Made by a program: the position numbers and the translations under genes
From: a virus
Strand: one strand, 5' to 3'
Virus record (IMG/VR): IMGVR_UViG_3300050120_000213
Coordinates: 1-64,000 of that record
Length of the DNA stretch: 64,000 nucleotides
The notes under the pieces: model-generated
The model's input: the letters and a program-made list of their open reading frames with translations, nothing else
What the model was told of the DNA's origin: nothing
Databases searched by the model: none
Shown: piece by piece, positions 9,354 to 53,023 of the stretch
Layout: each line of letters begins with the position of its first letter
Numbering within the stretch: the stretch's first letter is position 1

Positions 9354-9652
9354 AGGTGGGTATGAAGTCCGGTAACTTTTTCAAAAATGGATTGCAATTG
9401 ATTGCAACCGACTGCGTGCTTACTATTGATCAGTTTGATCGACGTACCGTATATCGAATAAAACGCCATGGTGTACAAGTCATCCCCGGTCAATAAAATT
9501 TGTACTCGACGGATGTTTTTACTACGCGGAATAAAAAATTGCAGGCCATTTTTTAATGCAATAAATTTACTGGCACCGGTCATGACCGCAAAACGATTAC
9601 CACCTAACTGACGTAGGATGGTGGCCCCTACTTCTTTATCAATTATTTCCAT
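9350..9652 (-). CDS. Hypothetical phage protein
   Basis: TILRQLGGNRFAVMTGA...TGLHTHL; ATG 9652 behind ATGGAG RBS. Confidence 0.75.
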   Translation of the reverse strand: MEIIDKEVGATILRQLGGNRFAVMTGASKFIALKNGLQFFIPRSKNIRRVQILLTGDDLYTMAFYSIYGTSIKLINSKHAVGCNQLQSIFEKVTGLHTHL

Positions 9653-9685
9653 GATTTCGGACTCCATTCCGTTGATTTAGATTTA

Positions 9686-9713
9686 AGTATAGCACTGTTT
9701 GCTGGATTGTCAA
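9686..9713 (-). promoter_or_regulatory. sigma70-type promoter TTGACA-N16-TATACT
   Basis: Consensus hexamers, TG extension; lies just after the array terminator. Confidence 0.85.
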
Positions 9714-9716
9714 AGG

Positions 9717-9750
9717 AAAAATGCAGCTAACCCCGAAAGATTAACTGCAT
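9717..9750 (-). terminator. Intrinsic terminator closing the GGY-NN array
   Basis: ATGCAGTTAATCT-TTCG-GGGTTAGCTGCAT-TTTT: 13-bp stem whose G-U pairs work only on the minus strand, UUCG loop. Confidence 0.8.
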
Positions 9751-9759
9751 CCCGTTCCC

Positions 9760-10112
9760 GTACCTCACCCTACCCGACCAAACCTCACCGCACCTGGCCT
9801 AACCCTACCGCACCTGCCTTACCGCACCCAACCTTACCGTGCCCAACCGTACCTTGCCCTGCCTGCCCAACCCTACCACACCTCACCCTACCGAACCCCA
9901 CCAAACCGCACCTGCCTAACCCTACCTTACCTAACCACACCAAACCGGACCATACCTGCCGTACCTGACCGGACCACACCTTACCTAACCATACCGGACC
10001 CTACCACACCTGCCATACCTAACCTCACCTCACCACACCGTACCAAGCCGCACCATACCTGCCATACCAGACCTCACCGCACCTCACCTCACCGGACCAC
10101 ACCTTACCTGCC
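9760..10112 (-). ncRNA. Array B of GGY-NN pentamers, 7 GGCA-delimited units (candidate guide RNAs, VIPR-like)
   Basis: Plus-strand tgcc at 9815, 9864, 9913, 9957, 10011, 10060, 10109 (spacings 49, 49, 44, 54, 49, 49 = 4+5n); strict GGY-NN register between them. Confidence 0.85.
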
Positions 10113-10763
10113 TCAATCTACCGCCACTTCTATTGCCTCGCTGATCAACCCTAACTTAATATTGATTAAGTCCAATAAATCTTGCAAAGGGATGTCCGTC
10201 AGCGGGAAAAACTTATTGCTGTTAATTGCGCTGGTGATGTTGCCGCGTGCTGATAGCAAACAGTGACGTAGATTTGAAAGGGACTGATACTCGCTCTTAG
10301 CGATTTCTTCCGATTCTTTCACCCCCATAGCTAGCCCAGTTTTACTAAAGGCGGGCATAAGCGCCGCTATTTCATCTTTAGAACCCAGCGGGGTTGATTT
10401 TACTGGGAAGCTCAAGGTGGTGATTTTAGACTCGTGTTTAATCACCGTTAGGTAAAGCACCTTAACTTCTTTATACAGCAAACTAACCTGCATAAGCAGG
10501 TACTTTTCTTGAGCGTAGTCCTTATTCCACGCCTCTTTAAACAAGTTGTGGAGGATGTCACTCGGGTTTCTAGCGGCGTCAATTAGCGCCTTTTTGTTTA
10601 GCAGTTTCGTCTGGGGGTCCACAAAGCCCATGAAATACAGGATCTGGGCTTTTGACATCTTTTTGCTCTTACTACGGTAGAGCTTTTCCAGTGCCATATA
10701 TTCCTCAGACAGATGCCCTGCTTCTGAGGATGAGTGGTCTATGGTCGTTCCTTCTTGCAACAT
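10113..10763 (-). CDS. Partner protein of the RAMP-like/array module (function unknown)
   Basis: ATG 10763 behind AGGAG; stop codon abuts the first GGCA of array B; LIDAARNPSDILHNLF...W...AQEKY motif. Confidence 0.75.
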   Translation of the reverse strand: MLQEGTTIDHSSSEAGHLSEEYMALEKLYRSKSKKMSKAQILYFMGFVDPQTKLLNKKALIDAARNPSDILHNLFKEAWNKDYAQEKYLLMQVSLLYKEVKVLYLTVIKHESKITTLSFPVKSTPLGSKDEIAALMPAFSKTGLAMGVKESEEIAKSEYQSLSNLRHCLLSARGNITSAINSNKFFPLTDIPLQDLLDLINIKLGLISEAIEVAVD

Positions 10764-10824
10764 AGTAAGTCTCCTAAACAAAACACCGGGGGTGGGTGCC
10801 CCCGGAGAGCGCCACGGCCAATTC

Positions 10825-11628
10825 TTACCCAGCCTTCATTGCCTTCAGACCCACGGGTTCCAAAGTCTGCCCGCGCTTCTTGATTTCTTCCTCAAACCAC
10901 TTGTTGATGTCCGCCGTGTCCCTGTCGAAATACGTGGGGTTATCAAAAGCGAGTTCTTGTGCGTGTCGCCCTTGCTTTTCGATTATTTCCAACACCCGTG
11001 GGTCATCGGGCTGTGCCACCAAAAACTTGCCGTAAGGGCCGCCTTTCTGGGGACGCCAATCACCAATCCCTACGATCCGCCCCGCCGCGTGGGCTAAGTT
11101 GGCAATCGAAGTATCATTGAGGGGGTTGGCCTTGTATGTAATGCGGACTCGTGGGATCACCCACTGGCGGAAAATGGGCCGAGTGCGGGGATCGGGCACG
11201 CTAGTCATGCCTGAATTCTTTGCCATCGTAGTATACAGTTCCGGCACGCCAAACAGGTTCAACTGCATGTCTTCATCCTGACTGGTTACGCTAATCCAGC
11301 GTTGGGCTTCGGACTTCCTGATCCCCGGCAAATCCAGCGCCACCGAGGACAAAGCCCCTTGAATCATTGCCACCGGCACATGAAACAACGTGGGTTCATC
11401 ATCGTTGCTGTTCATGTAAAAGCACTCTTGGTACTCCTTAAGCGGATAGTGCTTAATGTTCTCCGCTTTCGCCTGCTTGTTCATCGGTGCTTTGGGCAGC
11501 ATCAATTCCTGAAATGCCTTGCGTGCATAACGGTGCATGATGAAGGGGGATTGCCCAATCAAAGCCAAGTCGATACTCTCGACTTTAACTTCTTCAATAC
11601 TGATCTCTGCATTTTTAACGACCATCAT
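10825..11628 (-). CDS. RAMP/Cas7-like RNA-binding protein (Vipr-like)
   Basis: N-terminal strand LIGQSPFIMH, VPVAMIQGAL (like RAMP IP-x-S-x2-KG-x-L), RTRPIF-x2-W, C-terminal Gly-rich loop AGRIVGIGDWRPQKGGPYGKF; arrays on both sides. Confidence 0.75.
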   Translation of the reverse strand: MMVVKNAEISIEEVKVESIDLALIGQSPFIMHRYARKAFQELMLPKAPMNKQAKAENIKHYPLKEYQECFYMNSNDDEPTLFHVPVAMIQGALSSVALDLPGIRKSEAQRWISVTSQDEDMQLNLFGVPELYTTMAKNSGMTSVPDPRTRPIFRQWVIPRVRITYKANPLNDTSIANLAHAAGRIVGIGDWRPQKGGPYGKFLVAQPDDPRVLEIIEKQGRHAQELAFDNPTYFDRDTADINKWFEEEIKKRGQTLEPVGLKAMKAG

Positions 11629-11668
11629 ATCACTCCATTGTTGATAACTGTAGCACCGATTGGTACTA

Positions 11669-11692
11669 GGAAGCCCACGTTAATAGGCTTCC
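11669..11692 (-). other. Hairpin at the 3' end of array A
   Basis: GGAAGCC-N10-GGCTTCC, no U tract; possible processing or stability element. Confidence 0.55.
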
Positions 11693-11698
11693 CACTAC

Positions 11699-11864
11699 TA
11701 ACCTTACCTGCCAAACCCGACCTTACCAAACCTAACCGTACCTTACCAAACCGCACCTGCCTTACCGCACCTTACCTAACCAAACCTCACCTGACCTCAC
11801 CGCACCATACCTCACCTGCCTAACCATACCCCACCCAGCCATACCTCACCTGACCATGCCTGCC
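11699..11864 (-). ncRNA. Array A of GGY-NN pentamers, 3 complete units plus a 2-pentamer stub
   Basis: Plus-strand tgcc at 11709, 11758, 11817, 11861 (spacings 49, 59, 44); 8, 11 and 9 NN dinucleotides in transcript order. Confidence 0.85.
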
Positions 11865-11892
11865 ACACAAAAATTGCAATCAATTGCAACGC

Positions 11893-12360
11893 TTACGCGC
11901 CCATGTCGTCACGACGGTTCTTGTACTCAGCAGCCAACTTGGCTTCGGCCAGTTCGCCTTGCCACACCATCGCGTTCATTTGCTGCTCATCCGACTCGGT
12001 AAAGTCATCCGGGGTCGTGGGTTGCTTCGGTTCTGCTGGCTCAATCGGACGGATTTCGCGGCCATTCTGTGCGGCAATTTCCGCTAGCTGAGCCCAGTAC
12101 TTCGGCATTTTTTTCCTGGCAATCACCATCTGTTTCGGTGTCAGCGAGCCGTACTTGAGGATGCCCTTGGCAAACGAGGTGAGTATTTCTGCGTCTGTGC
12201 TATTAAACCCAACTCCATTTGCATCATGGGTGGCCTCTGACGATTGCTCTGCTGCTGTCTGCCGTTCGTAGATCCGCAGCACCCCGCGAACTACGGCACG
12301 ATCATTTGTTTGCAAAAGGGCCTGAATCGACTCTTTAACTACTTGTTGGGCTTTGTTCAT
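11893..12360 (-). CDS. Hypothetical phage protein
   Basis: IYERQT...NGVGF...DAEILTSFA...KYWAQL motifs; ATGGAG RBS. Confidence 0.75.
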   Translation of the reverse strand: MNKAQQVVKESIQALLQTNDRAVVRGVLRIYERQTAAEQSSEATHDANGVGFNSTDAEILTSFAKGILKYGSLTPKQMVIARKKMPKYWAQLAEIAAQNGREIRPIEPAEPKQPTTPDDFTESDEQQMNAMVWQGELAEAKLAAEYKNRRDDMGA

Positions 12361-12393
12361 TTTGCGGACTCCATTCCGGTTGGTAATGAATGT

Positions 12394-12421
12394 AGTATAG
12401 CAGCGTGACGCAGTTTGTCAA
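12394..12421 (-). promoter_or_regulatory. sigma70-type promoter TTGACA-N16-TATACT, nearest upstream promoter of the array/RAMP unit
   Basis: Consensus hexamers, TG extension. Confidence 0.85.
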
Positions 12422-51124: not shown

Positions 51125-53023
51125 TTATTGAACTAGGCTTGCGCCAGTCACAGAAACATCGGCACCAGGGGCGGTGTTTACCGTTACCCCGATGTTTTGC
51201 TGGGGTGTAACGGTGTTATTTGCTTTTCTAGGGGCGTCTTGGTCATTGTTCATACGCGGGCCGAAAATCTGATTGCCACCCCCCTCACGGAACAGGCTCT
51301 TGATGTAGTTGGCGTATTCCGTCATCTTTACGGACGCGGCACTAGGTGGCACTCCGGTGTGGTTGGGAGTTTGCGTAGCTGGCTGCACTCCGGTAGGAGT
51401 GGGAGTTTGCGTAGCTGGCTGGGCGGCAGAATTAGAGGGATCGTAATCCGCTAAGTTTAAGTCCACCCCATACGCGTCATACTTATTCAAATAATCTGAG
51501 GTTTCTTTCGGCAAAAACTGATCCCACTGGTCGCCATGCCCAGCGTGCCACACACCTTTCTTATCCTTGTACCCGTTGATATCCTTGTCGAGATTGCCCT
51601 CACCCCAATCGTAAGCGGCGAGAGCTTTTCTCATATCCCCGAACTTGGCAAGATCGTGCTGCAACAACTTTTGGGCAGCACCCCGTGAAGCCTTTTCATC
51701 AAATGGGTCAACTCCGTACTGCTTAGCAGTATCGTCCATTAACTGATAGGCCCCCTTAGCATGGCTATTGGGGTTTTCTGCGTTGGGATTATTGTCACTC
51801 TCAATGCCCTTGACCGAATCGAGCAGTGCGTTCCAGCTACTAGTAGCCCCACCAGCCGAGGGGGCAAGCCCTTCTGGTTGTCCCGCTTCAGTGTGATTTT
51901 TCTTCCATCCACCCAATACGTTATCCCAGATCCAGTCCCCAGCTTTTTGAAATCCACCCACTACGCCAGGGGCGTAAGGCTCGCCCTCTTTGTGGGGTGG
52001 AGACGCAACGGCATCAACTAAATTTGCAGCGCCTGCTATCAAGCTGACGCTAAGTTTAGTGGCAGCATCAGACCAGCGATCTAATGCGGGGGTGAGCTTA
52101 ATAACAGCAGCATCAAACGCGGTTTCGATTTCTTTGAAATTGGCAGCTTGGTGCGTGTCAAACGCGCTAGCTTCGTCAGCCTGTGATTGGCTAACCCCCA
52201 TTTCTTTCCAATGCGAATTGAATTGATCTTGCGCTTTGTCAAGTTCGCCGCTATTAGCGTACGAACCCAGGTTCCGCATTTGGTCGGGGCTGTAGAAATT
52301 CGTGTAGCCGAACGCCTGCGCTTGTGTCAGCGCAAAAGCAGGGCTGGTCTTTTCCCATTCGGAATACTGCTTGCCTACGCGCTTAGCGAAGTCAAACTGT
52401 AATTCTTCAGCGTCTTCGCTGTTGATTTGCTTGCTGGTGATGCCAGCATTCAAGAGTGGAGTTTGCTGAGTAACGTCTTCCTTAGCGTTTTCCATTGACT
52501 CTAGATCATTGGAATTTAAGCCAAATCTCTTGAAAAATGTGTTGAAAGCGGATTCTTTGCCGAGTTCGAGACCTAGACCACGACTGGAGGAATTCTGGGC
52601 GGCCACGCTACTGGCGGAAAGTAACGTGCTGCCGAATATCGTCGCGCCCAGCCCACCAATAGCCCCGGCCAAACCACCAAACGCCGAGAAATTGATCGAG
52701 CCGCGCACCAGACCTTGCATGAATTTGGAGCTTTTCTCGATTTCTTTCGAGATATTGCCCCACGACTTCTCGCTGGCCTTAGCGTTCTTGGTGATGAGAT
52801 CGAAAGCACGGGGTACAGCAGGGTCTTTCGCACCCTTTTGTACCCTATCAAAAGCAGTCCCCGCCGACTCAAACGCGTTCTTAACCCCGCCGATTTCTTT
52901 ATTGACGGATGCCCAGGCTTCGGGGTTGTTCTTTAAATGTTCGCGGTAGGCGTTGAATTTATCCGCAAACACGTCAAAGTCTTCGCTATCGACTTCGATC
53001 TTGATAATTGGTTTATCAGCCAC
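51125..53023 (-). CDS. Tape-measure protein with lytic transglycosylase domain
   Basis: IES...AKGAYQLM-x2-TA, ALAAYDWG-x-GN, ET-x2-Y; follows the chaperone. Confidence 0.8.
   Translation of the reverse strand: MADKPIIKIEVDSEDFDVFADKFNAYREHLKNNPEAWASVNKEIGGVKNAFESAGTAFDRVQKGAKDPAVPRAFDLITKNAKASEKSWGNISKEIEKSSKFMQGLVRGSINFSAFGGLAGAIGGLGATIFGSTLLSASSVAAQNSSSRGLGLELGKESAFNTFFKRFGLNSNDLESMENAKEDVTQQTPLLNAGITSKQINSEDAEELQFDFAKRVGKQYSEWEKTSPAFALTQAQAFGYTNFYSPDQMRNLGSYANSGELDKAQDQFNSHWKEMGVSQSQADEASAFDTHQAANFKEIETAFDAAVIKLTPALDRWSDAATKLSVSLIAGAANLVDAVASPPHKEGEPYAPGVVGGFQKAGDWIWDNVLGGWKKNHTEAGQPEGLAPSAGGATSSWNALLDSVKGIESDNNPNAENPNSHAKGAYQLMDDTAKQYGVDPFDEKASRGAAQKLLQHDLAKFGDMRKALAAYDWGEGNLDKDINGYKDKKGVWHAGHGDQWDQFLPKETSDYLNKYDAYGVDLNLADYDPSNSAAQPATQTPTPTGVQPATQTPNHTGVPPSAASVKMTEYANYIKSLFREGGGNQIFGPRMNNDQDAPRKANNTVTPQQNIGVTVNTAPGADVSVTGASLVQ
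51342..51421 (-). repeat. 36-bp tandem duplication in the tape-measure gene
   Basis: Encodes QPATQTPTPTGV-QPATQTPNHTGV. Confidence 0.7.

What the first reader, a model, noticed from the sequence alone, without database searches (positions are those of the whole stretch)
9717..11864. Candidate phage RNA-guided system: RAMP/Cas7-like protein with GGY-NN pentamer arrays (VIPR-like)
Seen: one minus-strand unit runs promoter (12421-12394), orf155, array A (11864-11699), hairpin, 267-aa gene, 216-aa gene, array B (10112-9760), UUCG terminator. Both arrays alternate a constant GGY with a variable NN, and GGCA cuts them into 10 complete units of 8-11 pentamers. Known: the 267-aa protein has RAMP hallmarks (SP-h-h-H first strand, P-x5-G-x-L helix, C-terminal Gly-rich loop GIGDWRPQKGGPYGKF), and RAMP/Cas7 proteins polymerise on guide RNA with a fixed step. 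Inference: one subunit binds each pentamer, holds GGY and displays NN, giving a programmable non-contiguous guide. No cas1, cas2, cas3 or cas6 and no canonical CRISPR array is present in the window. The layout matches my recollection of the recently reported VIPR (viral interference programmable repeat) systems; I cannot verify that here, and this locus's targets are unknown.
Basis: partly seen in the sequence, partly recalled or inferred. Interest (0 to 1): 0.97.

Follow-up and report, generated by a model that had tools for sequence, protein, structure and literature searches.

The report
Phage VIPR guide-RNA silencing locus
An uncultured 99.5-kb tailed phage carries a genuine VIPR system, a CRISPR-like class first described in 2026: a lone Cas7-like protein, a partner gene and ten guide RNAs built from GGY-NN five-base repeats, so it is a new member of a known class, and one guide appears aimed at a sister phage's tail gene.

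Summary
On the minus strand, one transcription unit holds orf155, array A, a 267-aa gene, a 216-aa gene, array B and a strong terminator. All 93 pentamers are GG-pyrimidine-NN. GGCA, a one-base frame slip, cuts them into 10 units of 8-11 pentamers.

The 267-aa protein is a Vipr:
- Its clade profile hits only the solved SUSP1 Vipr in the PDB (E 1e-9).
- All five published GGY-contact residues are kept.
- 73 of 80 viral and 50 of 53 bacterial homologue loci carry same-strand arrays.

The GGCA slip recurs across the family. It fits the 'staggered array' that the VIPR paper describes but did not confirm experimentally. The 216-aa gene belongs to a conserved vipr-adjacent family unrelated to SUSP1-type vap1.

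Targets are unknown for nine guides. Guide A3 reads, codon by codon, a peptide of this phage's tail-lysin gene (16/18). It fits the one known sister phage's orthologue better (9/9 residues, at least 17/18 bases).

VIPR is published, and this scan has already noted it in at least 268 other genomes. This is a new member of a known kind.

The parts
12394..12421 (-). Sigma-70-type promoter (TTGACA, 16 nt, TG-TATACT) that starts the transcription unit
   Evidence: 11 of 12 hexamer matches plus an extended -10 TG. No other minus-strand promoter-like site lies between it and array B.
11893..12360 (-). orf155 (phrog_21015, function unknown); co-transcribed but not a conserved VIPR partner
   Evidence: It has no relative beside vipr in any of 80 related loci.
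11699..11864 (-). vrRNA array A: a leading GGCA, units A1 (11860-11821, 8 pentamers), A2 (11816-11762, 11) and A3 (11757-11713, 9), each closed by GGCA, then a 2-pentamer stub
11667..11694 (-). Stable hairpin after array A (12-bp inner stem, no U-run); a possible 3' cap or processing structure ahead of vipr
   Evidence: -29.5 kcal/mol, z -4.5, 1 of 200 shuffles folds as well.
10825..11628 (-). vipr: 267-aa Cas7-like RAMP (core residues 12-209) with a clade-specific C-terminal helical extension (residues 210-267)
10786..10805 (-). GC-rich terminator-like hairpin plus U-rich tail between vipr and the next gene; a possible attenuator
   Evidence: 7 GC pairs, tail TGTTTTGTTT. Its energy is not exceptional against shuffles (z 0.2).
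10113..10763 (-). vap-like accessory gene, 216 aa; member of a conserved family that sits directly downstream of vipr
   Evidence: 37 of 56 downstream ORFs join its profile; shared PLHxxFEWDDxxAA motif. No Pfam match. Fold unresolved. Unrelated to VpaE1 vap1.
9760..10112 (-). vrRNA array B: a leading GGCA and units B1-B7 (9, 9, 10, 8, 9, 9, 11 pentamers); B1-B6 are each closed by GGCA
9714..9759 (-). Intrinsic terminator: long stem with a UUCG-type loop followed by a U-run; ends the unit
   Evidence: -22.5 kcal/mol, z -5.2, 0 of 200 shuffles folds as well. The next promoter starts at 9713.
52523..52550 (-). Near-match of guide A3 inside this phage's own tail-lysin gene (51125-53023). It marks the gene family that A3 reads; the better match is in a sister phage's orthologue
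   Evidence: 16 of 18 NN, skip base on the wobble position; peptide score z 6.8; sister protein P0031 gives 9 of 9 compatible residues.

Best explanation
This is a VIPR (Viral Interference Programmable Repeat) system of an uncultured myovirus. One promoter drives orf155, array A, vipr, the vap-like gene and array B, and a strong terminator ends the unit. By analogy with the solved SUSP1 system, Vipr protomers bind the transcript one per pentamer. They grip each GGY through H32, R150, D190, W191 and R192 and display the NN dinucleotides. The NN bases then pair with double-stranded DNA that has one skipped base per pair, which blocks transcription of the bound gene. Here the guides have no individual 3' tails. 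Each unit ends in GGCA followed directly by the next GG, so the pentamer register slips by one base. I infer that a filament cannot read through the slip, so each unit becomes its own ribonucleoprotein; this is the 'staggered array' form. The biological role is most likely interference with competing mobile elements. Guide A3 reads codon positions 1-2 of a nine-residue stretch of the tail-lysin gene as it occurs in a sister phage, and this phage's own copy differs at two read positions. Shown here: the anatomy, family membership, conserved contact residues, array co-occurrence, the conserved slip, and the A3 match. Inferred: transcription and processing, DNA binding and silencing, and the self/non-self meaning of the two A3 mismatches.
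Against: No RNA or binding data exist for this locus. Transcription, processing at GGCA and DNA binding are all inferred from a type II system whose Vipr shares detectable sequence only in the thumb and G-loop region. Staggered arrays are the one array form the paper did not confirm by small-RNA sequencing. A terminator-like hairpin between vipr and the vap-like gene could limit expression of array B. Nine of ten guides have no identified target. Exact 1-nt-skip patterns for seven guides in IMG/VR, one in GTDB genomes and two in JGI metagenomes gave nothing above chance. The DNA of the sister phage was not obtainable, so 17 or 18 of 18 is deduced from its protein, and the Arg codon family there is unknown. 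The own gene at 16 of 18 (89%) would count as a target under the paper's 80% criterion, so self-avoidance is not demonstrated. The vap-like protein's fold and function are unresolved.
Confidence: 0.92

Rival explanations
1. The system partly regulates the phage itself. Guide A3 binds the phage's own tail-lysin gene despite two mismatches and delays or damps expression of this late gene, so the locus acts as a temporal regulator as well as, or instead of, a weapon.
For: The own gene matches A3 at 16 of 18 NN (89%), in the wobble register and in coding-strand sense. This is above the 80% match that the VIPR paper accepts for natural targets. The locus sits behind a strong constitutive-type promoter among small early-looking genes.
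Against: The sister phage's orthologue fits the guide better (9 of 9 residues against 8 of 9, and at least 17 of 18 bases). The paper found no self-targeting at 80% or more in its own sets and reports that disturbing NN pairing abolishes silencing. Only one of ten guides shows any self-similarity.
Confidence: 0.15
2. It is a VIPR relative with a different output. The ribonucleoprotein recruits the 216-aa partner or a host factor to damage or degrade the target, or it binds RNA, rather than acting as a simple transcriptional roadblock.
For: The paper reports that accessory genes differ between types and that some types carry nucleases or helicases. The vap family here is unrelated to SUSP1-type vap1 and has no recognisable fold. 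This Vipr also has an extra C-terminal helical domain that the 202-residue solved SUSP1 Vipr chain has no room for.
Against: The vap-like protein has no nuclease or helicase signature. Its only weak resemblances are to PadR-like winged-helix regulators with a coiled coil, which fits the DNA-binding class of vap proteins. A3 has coding-strand sense, so it cannot pair with the mRNA.
Confidence: 0.1
3. The A3 match and the L063 guide match to this phage are coincidences, and the true targets of all ten guides lie in unsampled elements such as satellites, prophages or host genes.
For: Both signals are post hoc finds among many tests. Family-wise p is about 0.01-0.03 for A3 before the sister-phage check, and about 0.01-0.04 for L063. 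The L063 match has its skip base on codon position 1, not the wobble position. Exact A3 hits in IMG/VR are chance-like.
Against: The prediction made from the guide, Tyr instead of Phe, was met by the only known homologue. The second mismatch is a synonymous Arg codon-family switch. The match lies in the true reading frame of a real gene.
Confidence: 0.25
4. The pentamer tracts are not guide RNAs at all. They are simple-sequence DNA, such as a G-rich structural or recombination element, or the coding sequence of a repeat protein.
For: Short ORFs can be drawn across the tracts. G-rich repeats can form unusual DNA structures (general knowledge).
Against: A 5-nt period with -1 slips cannot hold a reading frame. 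The tracts are strictly strand-specific relative to vipr in well over 100 independent loci across phyla. The NN positions vary while GGY is fixed. The homologous SUSP1 tracts are proven RNAs bound by Vipr.
Confidence: 0.02

Closest known systems
VIPR systems with 'staggered' vrRNA arrays (bioRxiv 10.64898/2026.04.26.720920, text and legend of fig. S18)
   Same: A lone Vipr RAMP, an adjacent accessory gene, and GGY/NN pentamer guides that abut with a 1-nt overlap. Here GGCAG is the last pentamer of a unit and its final G is the first G of the next. The context is a phage, with no cas genes found and no CRISPR array.
   Different: The paper's figure and type tables could not be read, so the VIPR type is not assigned. 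The paper says only the ribozyme-array and single-guide forms were confirmed by small-RNA sequencing.
Type II VIPR of Escherichia phage SUSP1 and Felix O1-like phages such as VpaE1 (experimental reference; PDB 36pp)
   Same: The gene order is the same: upstream guide(s), vipr, accessory gene, downstream guides. Both use GGT-NN pentamers, to the point that array B finds VpaE1 by blastn. The thumb Arg and the G-loop D-W-R that read GGY are identical.
   Different: In VpaE1 each vrRNA stands alone with its own leader and a structured 3' tail of about 40 nt; the units here have no tails. This Vipr is 267 aa against 195-202 aa and aligns only over about 55 residues by BLAST. The accessory proteins are unrelated (hhalign probability 0.1%). 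SUSP1 targets a satellite's recombinase; the one readable guide here points at a sister phage's tail-lysin gene.
CRISPR class 1 backbone proteins Cas7, Csm3 and Cmr4
   Different: No Cas1 was found and there is no repeat-spacer array. The step is 5 nt with 2 displayed bases instead of 6 nt with 5. The guide is noncontiguous. The system is phage-borne.

Membership tests
VIPR system | Vipr protein: a RAMP fold (RRM core, thumb, glycine-rich loop) outside any CRISPR-Cas context | tested here: met
VIPR system | Sequence relationship to characterised Vipr proteins | tested here: met
   The only significant PDB hit of the clade profile is the SUSP1 Vipr protein 36pp (E 1.1e-9). The single sequence gives E 0.006. 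BLASTP to the VpaE1 orthologue gives 4e-8 over the thumb and G-loop.
VIPR system | Residues that recognise GGY (SUSP1 H17, R138, D177, W178, R179) | tested here: met
   They align to H32, R150, D190, W191 and R192. R150, D190 and R192 are invariant and W191 near-invariant in 27 homologues. The H32 position is H or N across the clade (pattern), and its alignment comes from a weak first-domain match.
VIPR system | vrRNA genes made of tandem YNNGG/GGYNN pentamers with conserved GGY and hypervariable NN, beside vipr on the same strand | tested here: met
   93 of 93 pentamers conform and all 16 dinucleotides occur at NN. Same-strand arrays occur in 73 of 80 viral and 50 of 53 bacterial homologue loci.
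VIPR system | Minimal locus with a vipr-accessory (vap) gene | tested here: met
   The 216-aa gene directly follows vipr and belongs to a family found in that position in 37 of 56 related loci. Which of vap1-6 it is, if any, could not be determined; it is not the VpaE1-type vap1.
VIPR system | vrRNAs are expressed, processed and bound by Vipr | not testable with these tools
   This needs small-RNA sequencing and pull-down. Only promoter, terminator and hairpin predictions are available.
VIPR system | Targets follow the 1-nt-skip rule on double-stranded DNA and are silenced | tested here: inconclusive
   A3 matches a real gene with a 3-nt period and the skip base on the wobble position (16 of 18 in the own gene; at least 17 of 18 deduced for sister P0031). 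A guide from related locus L063 matches this phage 16 of 16 under the same rule. The other nine guides have no target. Binding and silencing are untested.
VIPR staggered-array architecture | Adjacent vrRNAs share a 1-nt overlap with no tail or ribozyme between them | tested here: met
   Nine GGCA-then-GG junctions, with unit spacing always 4 mod 5. No Rfam family, including hammerhead ribozymes, matches the locus. The same slip occurs 248 times in relatives.
VIPR type II (SUSP1 clade) | Stand-alone vrRNAs with a conserved structured 3' tail, and vap1 | tested here: not met
   Units abut without tails, in contrast to VpaE1. The vap family is unrelated to VpaE1 vap1.
CRISPR-Cas | Repeat-spacer array and adaptation or processing genes (cas1, cas2, cas6) | tested here: not met
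   No Cas1 (PF01867) match in the 99.5-kb genome, with the control search positive in 7 of 14 reference genomes. Tandem Repeats Finder finds only the two pentamer arrays and two unrelated 2-copy repeats. cas2 and cas6 were not searched separately.

The most novel reading that the evidence does not exclude
Kin-directed VIPR targeting with self-avoidance written into the codons. Guide A3 would silence the tail-lysin gene of sister phages that co-infect the same host. This phage would spare its own copy through just two changes at read positions: a Tyr-to-Phe change and a synonymous Arg switch from the CGN to the AGR codon family. Such a switch is one of the few silent changes visible to a system that reads only codon positions 1 and 2. 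In return, a guide in another phage's staggered VIPR array (L063) matches this phage 16 of 16. Together these would be a natural example of reciprocal guide-based warfare between related lytic phages, and of how self and non-self are told apart without a PAM.
Probability: 0.35. Interest if true: 0.6.

Novelty: new member of a known kind. Interest (0 to 1): 0.4.

Why it matters
VIPR is a months-old class and its only worked examples are type II systems of E. coli and Pseudomonas phages. This locus is a clean, compact example of the tail-less 'staggered' array form, which the discovery paper described but did not confirm experimentally. It sits in a complete 99.5-kb uncultured myovirus genome, with clear transcription signals, ten well-delimited guides, a family-wide conserved GGCA delimiter and a defined accessory-protein family. 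That makes it a good candidate for testing how guides without tails or ribozymes are matured. The A3 result gives a concrete, falsifiable natural target, a sister phage's tail-lysin gene. It also offers a natural pair of near-identical sites, own and sister, for measuring how many NN mismatches VIPR tolerates, which bears on self versus non-self discrimination in a system with no PAM.

Tried and rejected
1. Exact 1-nt-skip target scans.
- A2, B7, B3, B1 and B5 gave 0 hits in IMG/VR.
- A3 gave 2 hits, both out of the wobble register and in unrelated contigs, which is about the chance number.
- B2 gave 1 hit in a baseplate-wedge gene of an unrelated phage. It is in the wobble register, but no other guide converges there and about 1.5 chance hits are expected, so it is not claimed.
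- A2 in GTDB genomes, and B7 and A2 in JGI metagenomes, gave 0 hits.

2. Self-targeting at the DNA level. Nothing rose above shuffles except A3.

3. Guides against the 80 related VIPR loci gave nothing. The peptide-level search of all held loci gave nothing new.

4. Host inference failed.
- There are no tRNAs in the window.
- The large terminase subunit is at most 44% identical to phages of mixed gammaproteobacterial hosts.
- The tail lysin has only remote hits.
- Vipr relatives in bacterial genomes are scattered over many phyla at 37% identity or less.

5. Kin search. None of the 26 vipr-bearing IMG/VR records encodes the tail-lysin orthologue.

6. The vap-like protein.
- No Pfam match for it or for 28 family members.
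- One relative among 1.84 billion representatives, and only itself in the word-seeded search.
- The fold model is mediocre (pLDDT 72.7, pTM 0.41), and Foldseek gives nothing below E 0.5. The PadR-like rows are only a hint.

7. Rfam gave no match in the locus.

8. VIPR type assignment was not possible, because the types are defined in figures and tables that are not held as text.

10. I considered whether orf155 is part of the system and rejected it, because it never accompanies vipr elsewhere.
Full report
**1. What is there**

The window is the first 64 kb of a 99,510-bp IMG/VR virus record rated 100% complete. The phage is a myovirus. It encodes a tail sheath, baseplate wedge, portal and both terminase subunits. 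All large genes lie on the minus strand and GC is 51.6%.

On the minus strand between 12421 and 9714 lies one unit:
- a near-consensus promoter at 12421-12394;
- orf155;
- array A (11864-11699);
- a stable hairpin;
- a 267-aa gene (11628-10825);
- a GC-rich terminator-like hairpin;
- a 216-aa gene (10763-10113);
- array B (10112-9760);
- a long UUCG-loop hairpin with a U-run.

A second promoter of the same quality starts at 9713, so the unit is cleanly bounded.

**2. The arrays are real and highly ordered**

A search for four or more consecutive GGYNN pentamers gives ten runs on the minus strand. All lie in the two arrays, and there are none on the plus strand or anywhere else in the genome. 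Parsed by hand and by script, array A holds units of 8, 11 and 9 pentamers plus a 2-pentamer stub. Array B holds units of 9, 9, 10, 8, 9, 9 and 11.

All 93 pentamers begin with GG, and the third base is T in 86 and C in 7. All sixteen dinucleotides occur at NN. Nine of the ten units are followed by GGCA and then GG. This is a 4-nt element that shifts the pentamer register by -1. Put another way, GGCAG is a terminal pentamer whose last G is the first G of the next unit. All seven slip-to-slip distances measured in the window are 4 mod 5.

**3. The 267-aa protein is a Vipr**

Pfam has nothing for it and PHROGs gives only an unnamed family.

- **Sequence.** Against all PDB sequences the single protein's best hit is 'SUSP1 Vipr protein' (36pp, E 0.006). 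The alignment runs through RPIFRxW and G(I/V)GDWRP. A profile of 27 homologues raises this to E 1.1e-9, with no other significant hit.
- **Contact residues.** The cryo-EM paper names the residues that read GGY in SUSP1: H17 on the first strand, R138 in the thumb, and D177, W178 and R179 in the G-loop. They align to H32, R150, D190, W191 and R192 here. R150, D190 and R192 are invariant and W191 near-invariant in the clade.
- **Extension.** Residues 210-267 form a helical extension that is conserved in the close clade. The 195-202-aa type II proteins have no room for it.

**4. Homologues carry the same arrays**

IMG/VR holds 236 contigs that encode a relative, and 80 loci were fetched. Of these, 73 have same-strand GGYNN runs next to the gene, with almost none on the opposite strand. 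The seven without runs end within about 1 kb after the gene.

In one-genome-per-species bacterial and archaeal assemblies, 53 loci encode a relative. They are scattered over Actinomycetota, Chloroflexota, Acidobacteriota, Alphaproteobacteria, Binatia and others, and 50 of them carry same-strand runs.

Cultured-phage relatives are only 26-28% identical: Gordonia and Mycobacterium phages, Pseudomonas LESphi2 and a cyanophage. All are annotated as hypothetical.

**5. The GGCA slip is a family trait**

In the 80 viral loci the gaps between adjacent runs are almost only 4 nt (129 cases), 5 nt (117), 9 nt (31) or 10 nt (31). The only register change is therefore -1. Most 4-nt gaps are the same GGCA followed by GG.

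A stricter count finds 248 such slips and none on the opposite strand. Slip-to-slip spacing is 4 mod 5 in 72 of 111 cases, and unit sizes are mostly 7-12 pentamers.

[quoted passage not shown] The paper states that the ribozyme-array and single-guide forms were confirmed by small-RNA sequencing, and it does not list the staggered form among them. Rfam finds no ribozyme or other family in the locus.

For contrast, the Felix O1-like E. coli phage VpaE1 (SUSP1-like, type II layout) has separate vrRNAs, each with its own leader and a tail of about 40 nt.

**6. The accessory gene**

The usual order in relatives is vipr, then an overlapping or adjacent ORF of about 140-180 aa, then an array that starts 430-700 nt after the vipr stop. 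An iterated profile started from orf216 gathers 37 of 56 such ORFs in two rounds. They share a motif of the form LTPxxVVxAAR...PLHxxFEWDDxxAA...R..QA..LIR.

The family has no Pfam match. orf216 itself has one relative among 1.84 billion representatives. Its model is mediocre, and Foldseek gives only weak PadR-like winged-helix rows. It is unrelated to the VpaE1 accessory protein.

orf155 and the other neighbours never accompany vipr elsewhere.

**7. How it most likely works**

From the SUSP1 work:
- one Vipr protomer binds each pentamer;
- two neighbouring protomers sequester GGY;
- the NN bases pair with a DNA strand in which every third base is skipped;
- the complex blocks transcription.

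Because the contact residues and the repeat grammar are conserved, I take the same mechanism to apply here. The inferred addition concerns the slip. After GGCAG the next pentamer in the old register would read GYNNG, which lacks the second G that the thumb Arg and G-loop Trp hold. A filament should therefore stop there and a new one should start one base earlier. This would turn one transcript into ten separate guide complexes, whether or not a nuclease then trims them.

**8. Targets**

I applied the published rule, replacing each GGY by one wildcard.

- **Exact-pattern scans.** Scans for seven guides in IMG/VR, one in GTDB genomes and two in JGI metagenomes gave nothing beyond the chance number.
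- **A3 against its own genome.** Only guide A3 stands out. It matches 16 of 18 NN at 52523-52550 inside the tail-lysin gene (51125-53023, which carries an SLT-type transglycosylase domain). The match is in coding-strand sense, with the skip base on the codon wobble position.
- **A3 read as codons.** A3 spells A-(F/L)-(K/N)-T-Y-(F/L)-(K/N)-R-(F/L), and the phage has AFNTFFKRF. Against the six-frame proteome this scores z 6.8. None of 1500 order-shuffles and 4 of 2500 random guides reach that score, and the other 19 guide/orientation tests have z below 2.
- **The two mismatches.** One is TAx (Tyr) against TTT (Phe). The other is CGx against AGA, both arginine.
- **The test.** I predicted that a relative would carry Tyr at that position. 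The only homologue of this protein region in 5.8 billion clusters is P0031 (79% identical there, from a 14-kb JGI contig). It reads AFNTYFKRF, which is 9 of 9 compatible residues. By the genetic code its gene must match A3 at 17 or more of 18 positions.

I could not obtain its DNA.

**9. A reciprocal hint**

I tested 57 guides from the related loci against all held DNA. [quoted passage not shown] The site lies in a 286-aa gene of unknown function (phrog_10079).

Simulation puts the expected number of such hits at about 0.01-0.04. The skip base falls on codon position 1 rather than the wobble position, so I treat this as a lead only.

**10. Comparison and verdict**

The locus meets every testable defining feature of a VIPR system and of its staggered-array form. 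It does not meet the type II features of per-guide tails and vap1. The VIPR type cannot be assigned, because the types are defined in figures and tables not held as text.

The class is published (three preprints, April to October 2026). This scan has already noted it 342 times in at least 268 genomes, including another staggered example. The finding is therefore a correct call of a known kind.

Its residual value lies in three things: a clean staggered-array specimen; the family-wide GGCA statistics and vap family; and a specific, testable natural target with an own-versus-sister site pair.

Noticed in passing
window 11874-11889, 9392-9407 and 20 further sites: A 16-bp near-palindrome, TTGCAATTGATTGCAA, occurs 22 times in the window at one mismatch or fewer (chance expectation 0.01). 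One copy sits between the orf155 stop and the start of array A, and another lies just past the next gene downstream of the locus. Other first-reader notes on this genome describe it; its function is unknown.
   Followed up: partly
G000 79011-79034 (outside the window; L082 16012-16035): A complete 8-pentamer guide of another phage's staggered VIPR array (L063:2589-2628, IMGVR_UViG_3300032820_000761) matches this phage 16 of 16 under the 1-nt-skip rule, inside a 286-aa gene of unknown function (phrog_10079). The expected number of such hits is about 0.01-0.04. The skip base is on codon position 1.
   Followed up: partly
L063:2480-2900: The L063 array uses additional delimiters besides GGCA, with recurring GGCCGTTAAGG and GGCAG(G)TTCCGG junctions. 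Punctuation in staggered arrays is therefore not uniform across the family.
   Followed up: no
L101, L106, L108, L114-L131, L133, L135 and L138 (Vicinamibacterales MAGs): Several Vicinamibacterales genomes hold many copies (up to seven in one assembly) of a short match to the Vipr G-loop region (about 23 residues, 56-70% identical). In most copies it is followed within about 60-130 nt by one or two short GGYNN runs. This looks like a multi-copy, perhaps mobile, mini-VIPR or a decayed unit.
   Followed up: no
window 10786-10805: A seven-GC-pair hairpin with a U-rich tail lies between vipr and the accessory gene. If it terminates transcription, array A and vipr would be expressed more strongly than the accessory gene and array B.
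   Followed up: partly
window 12360-12385 and 9660-9685: The two genes that follow the two near-identical promoters share an almost identical leader, CGGAATGGAGTCCG, just before the start codon. This suggests a common translational or early-gene control element.
   Followed up: no
L140:7127-7152: Guide B2 has one exact 18-of-18 match in IMG/VR. It lies in the true frame of a baseplate-wedge gene (phrog_219) of an unrelated 21-kb phage contig, with the skip base on the wobble position. It cannot be told apart from chance on present data.
   Followed up: yes
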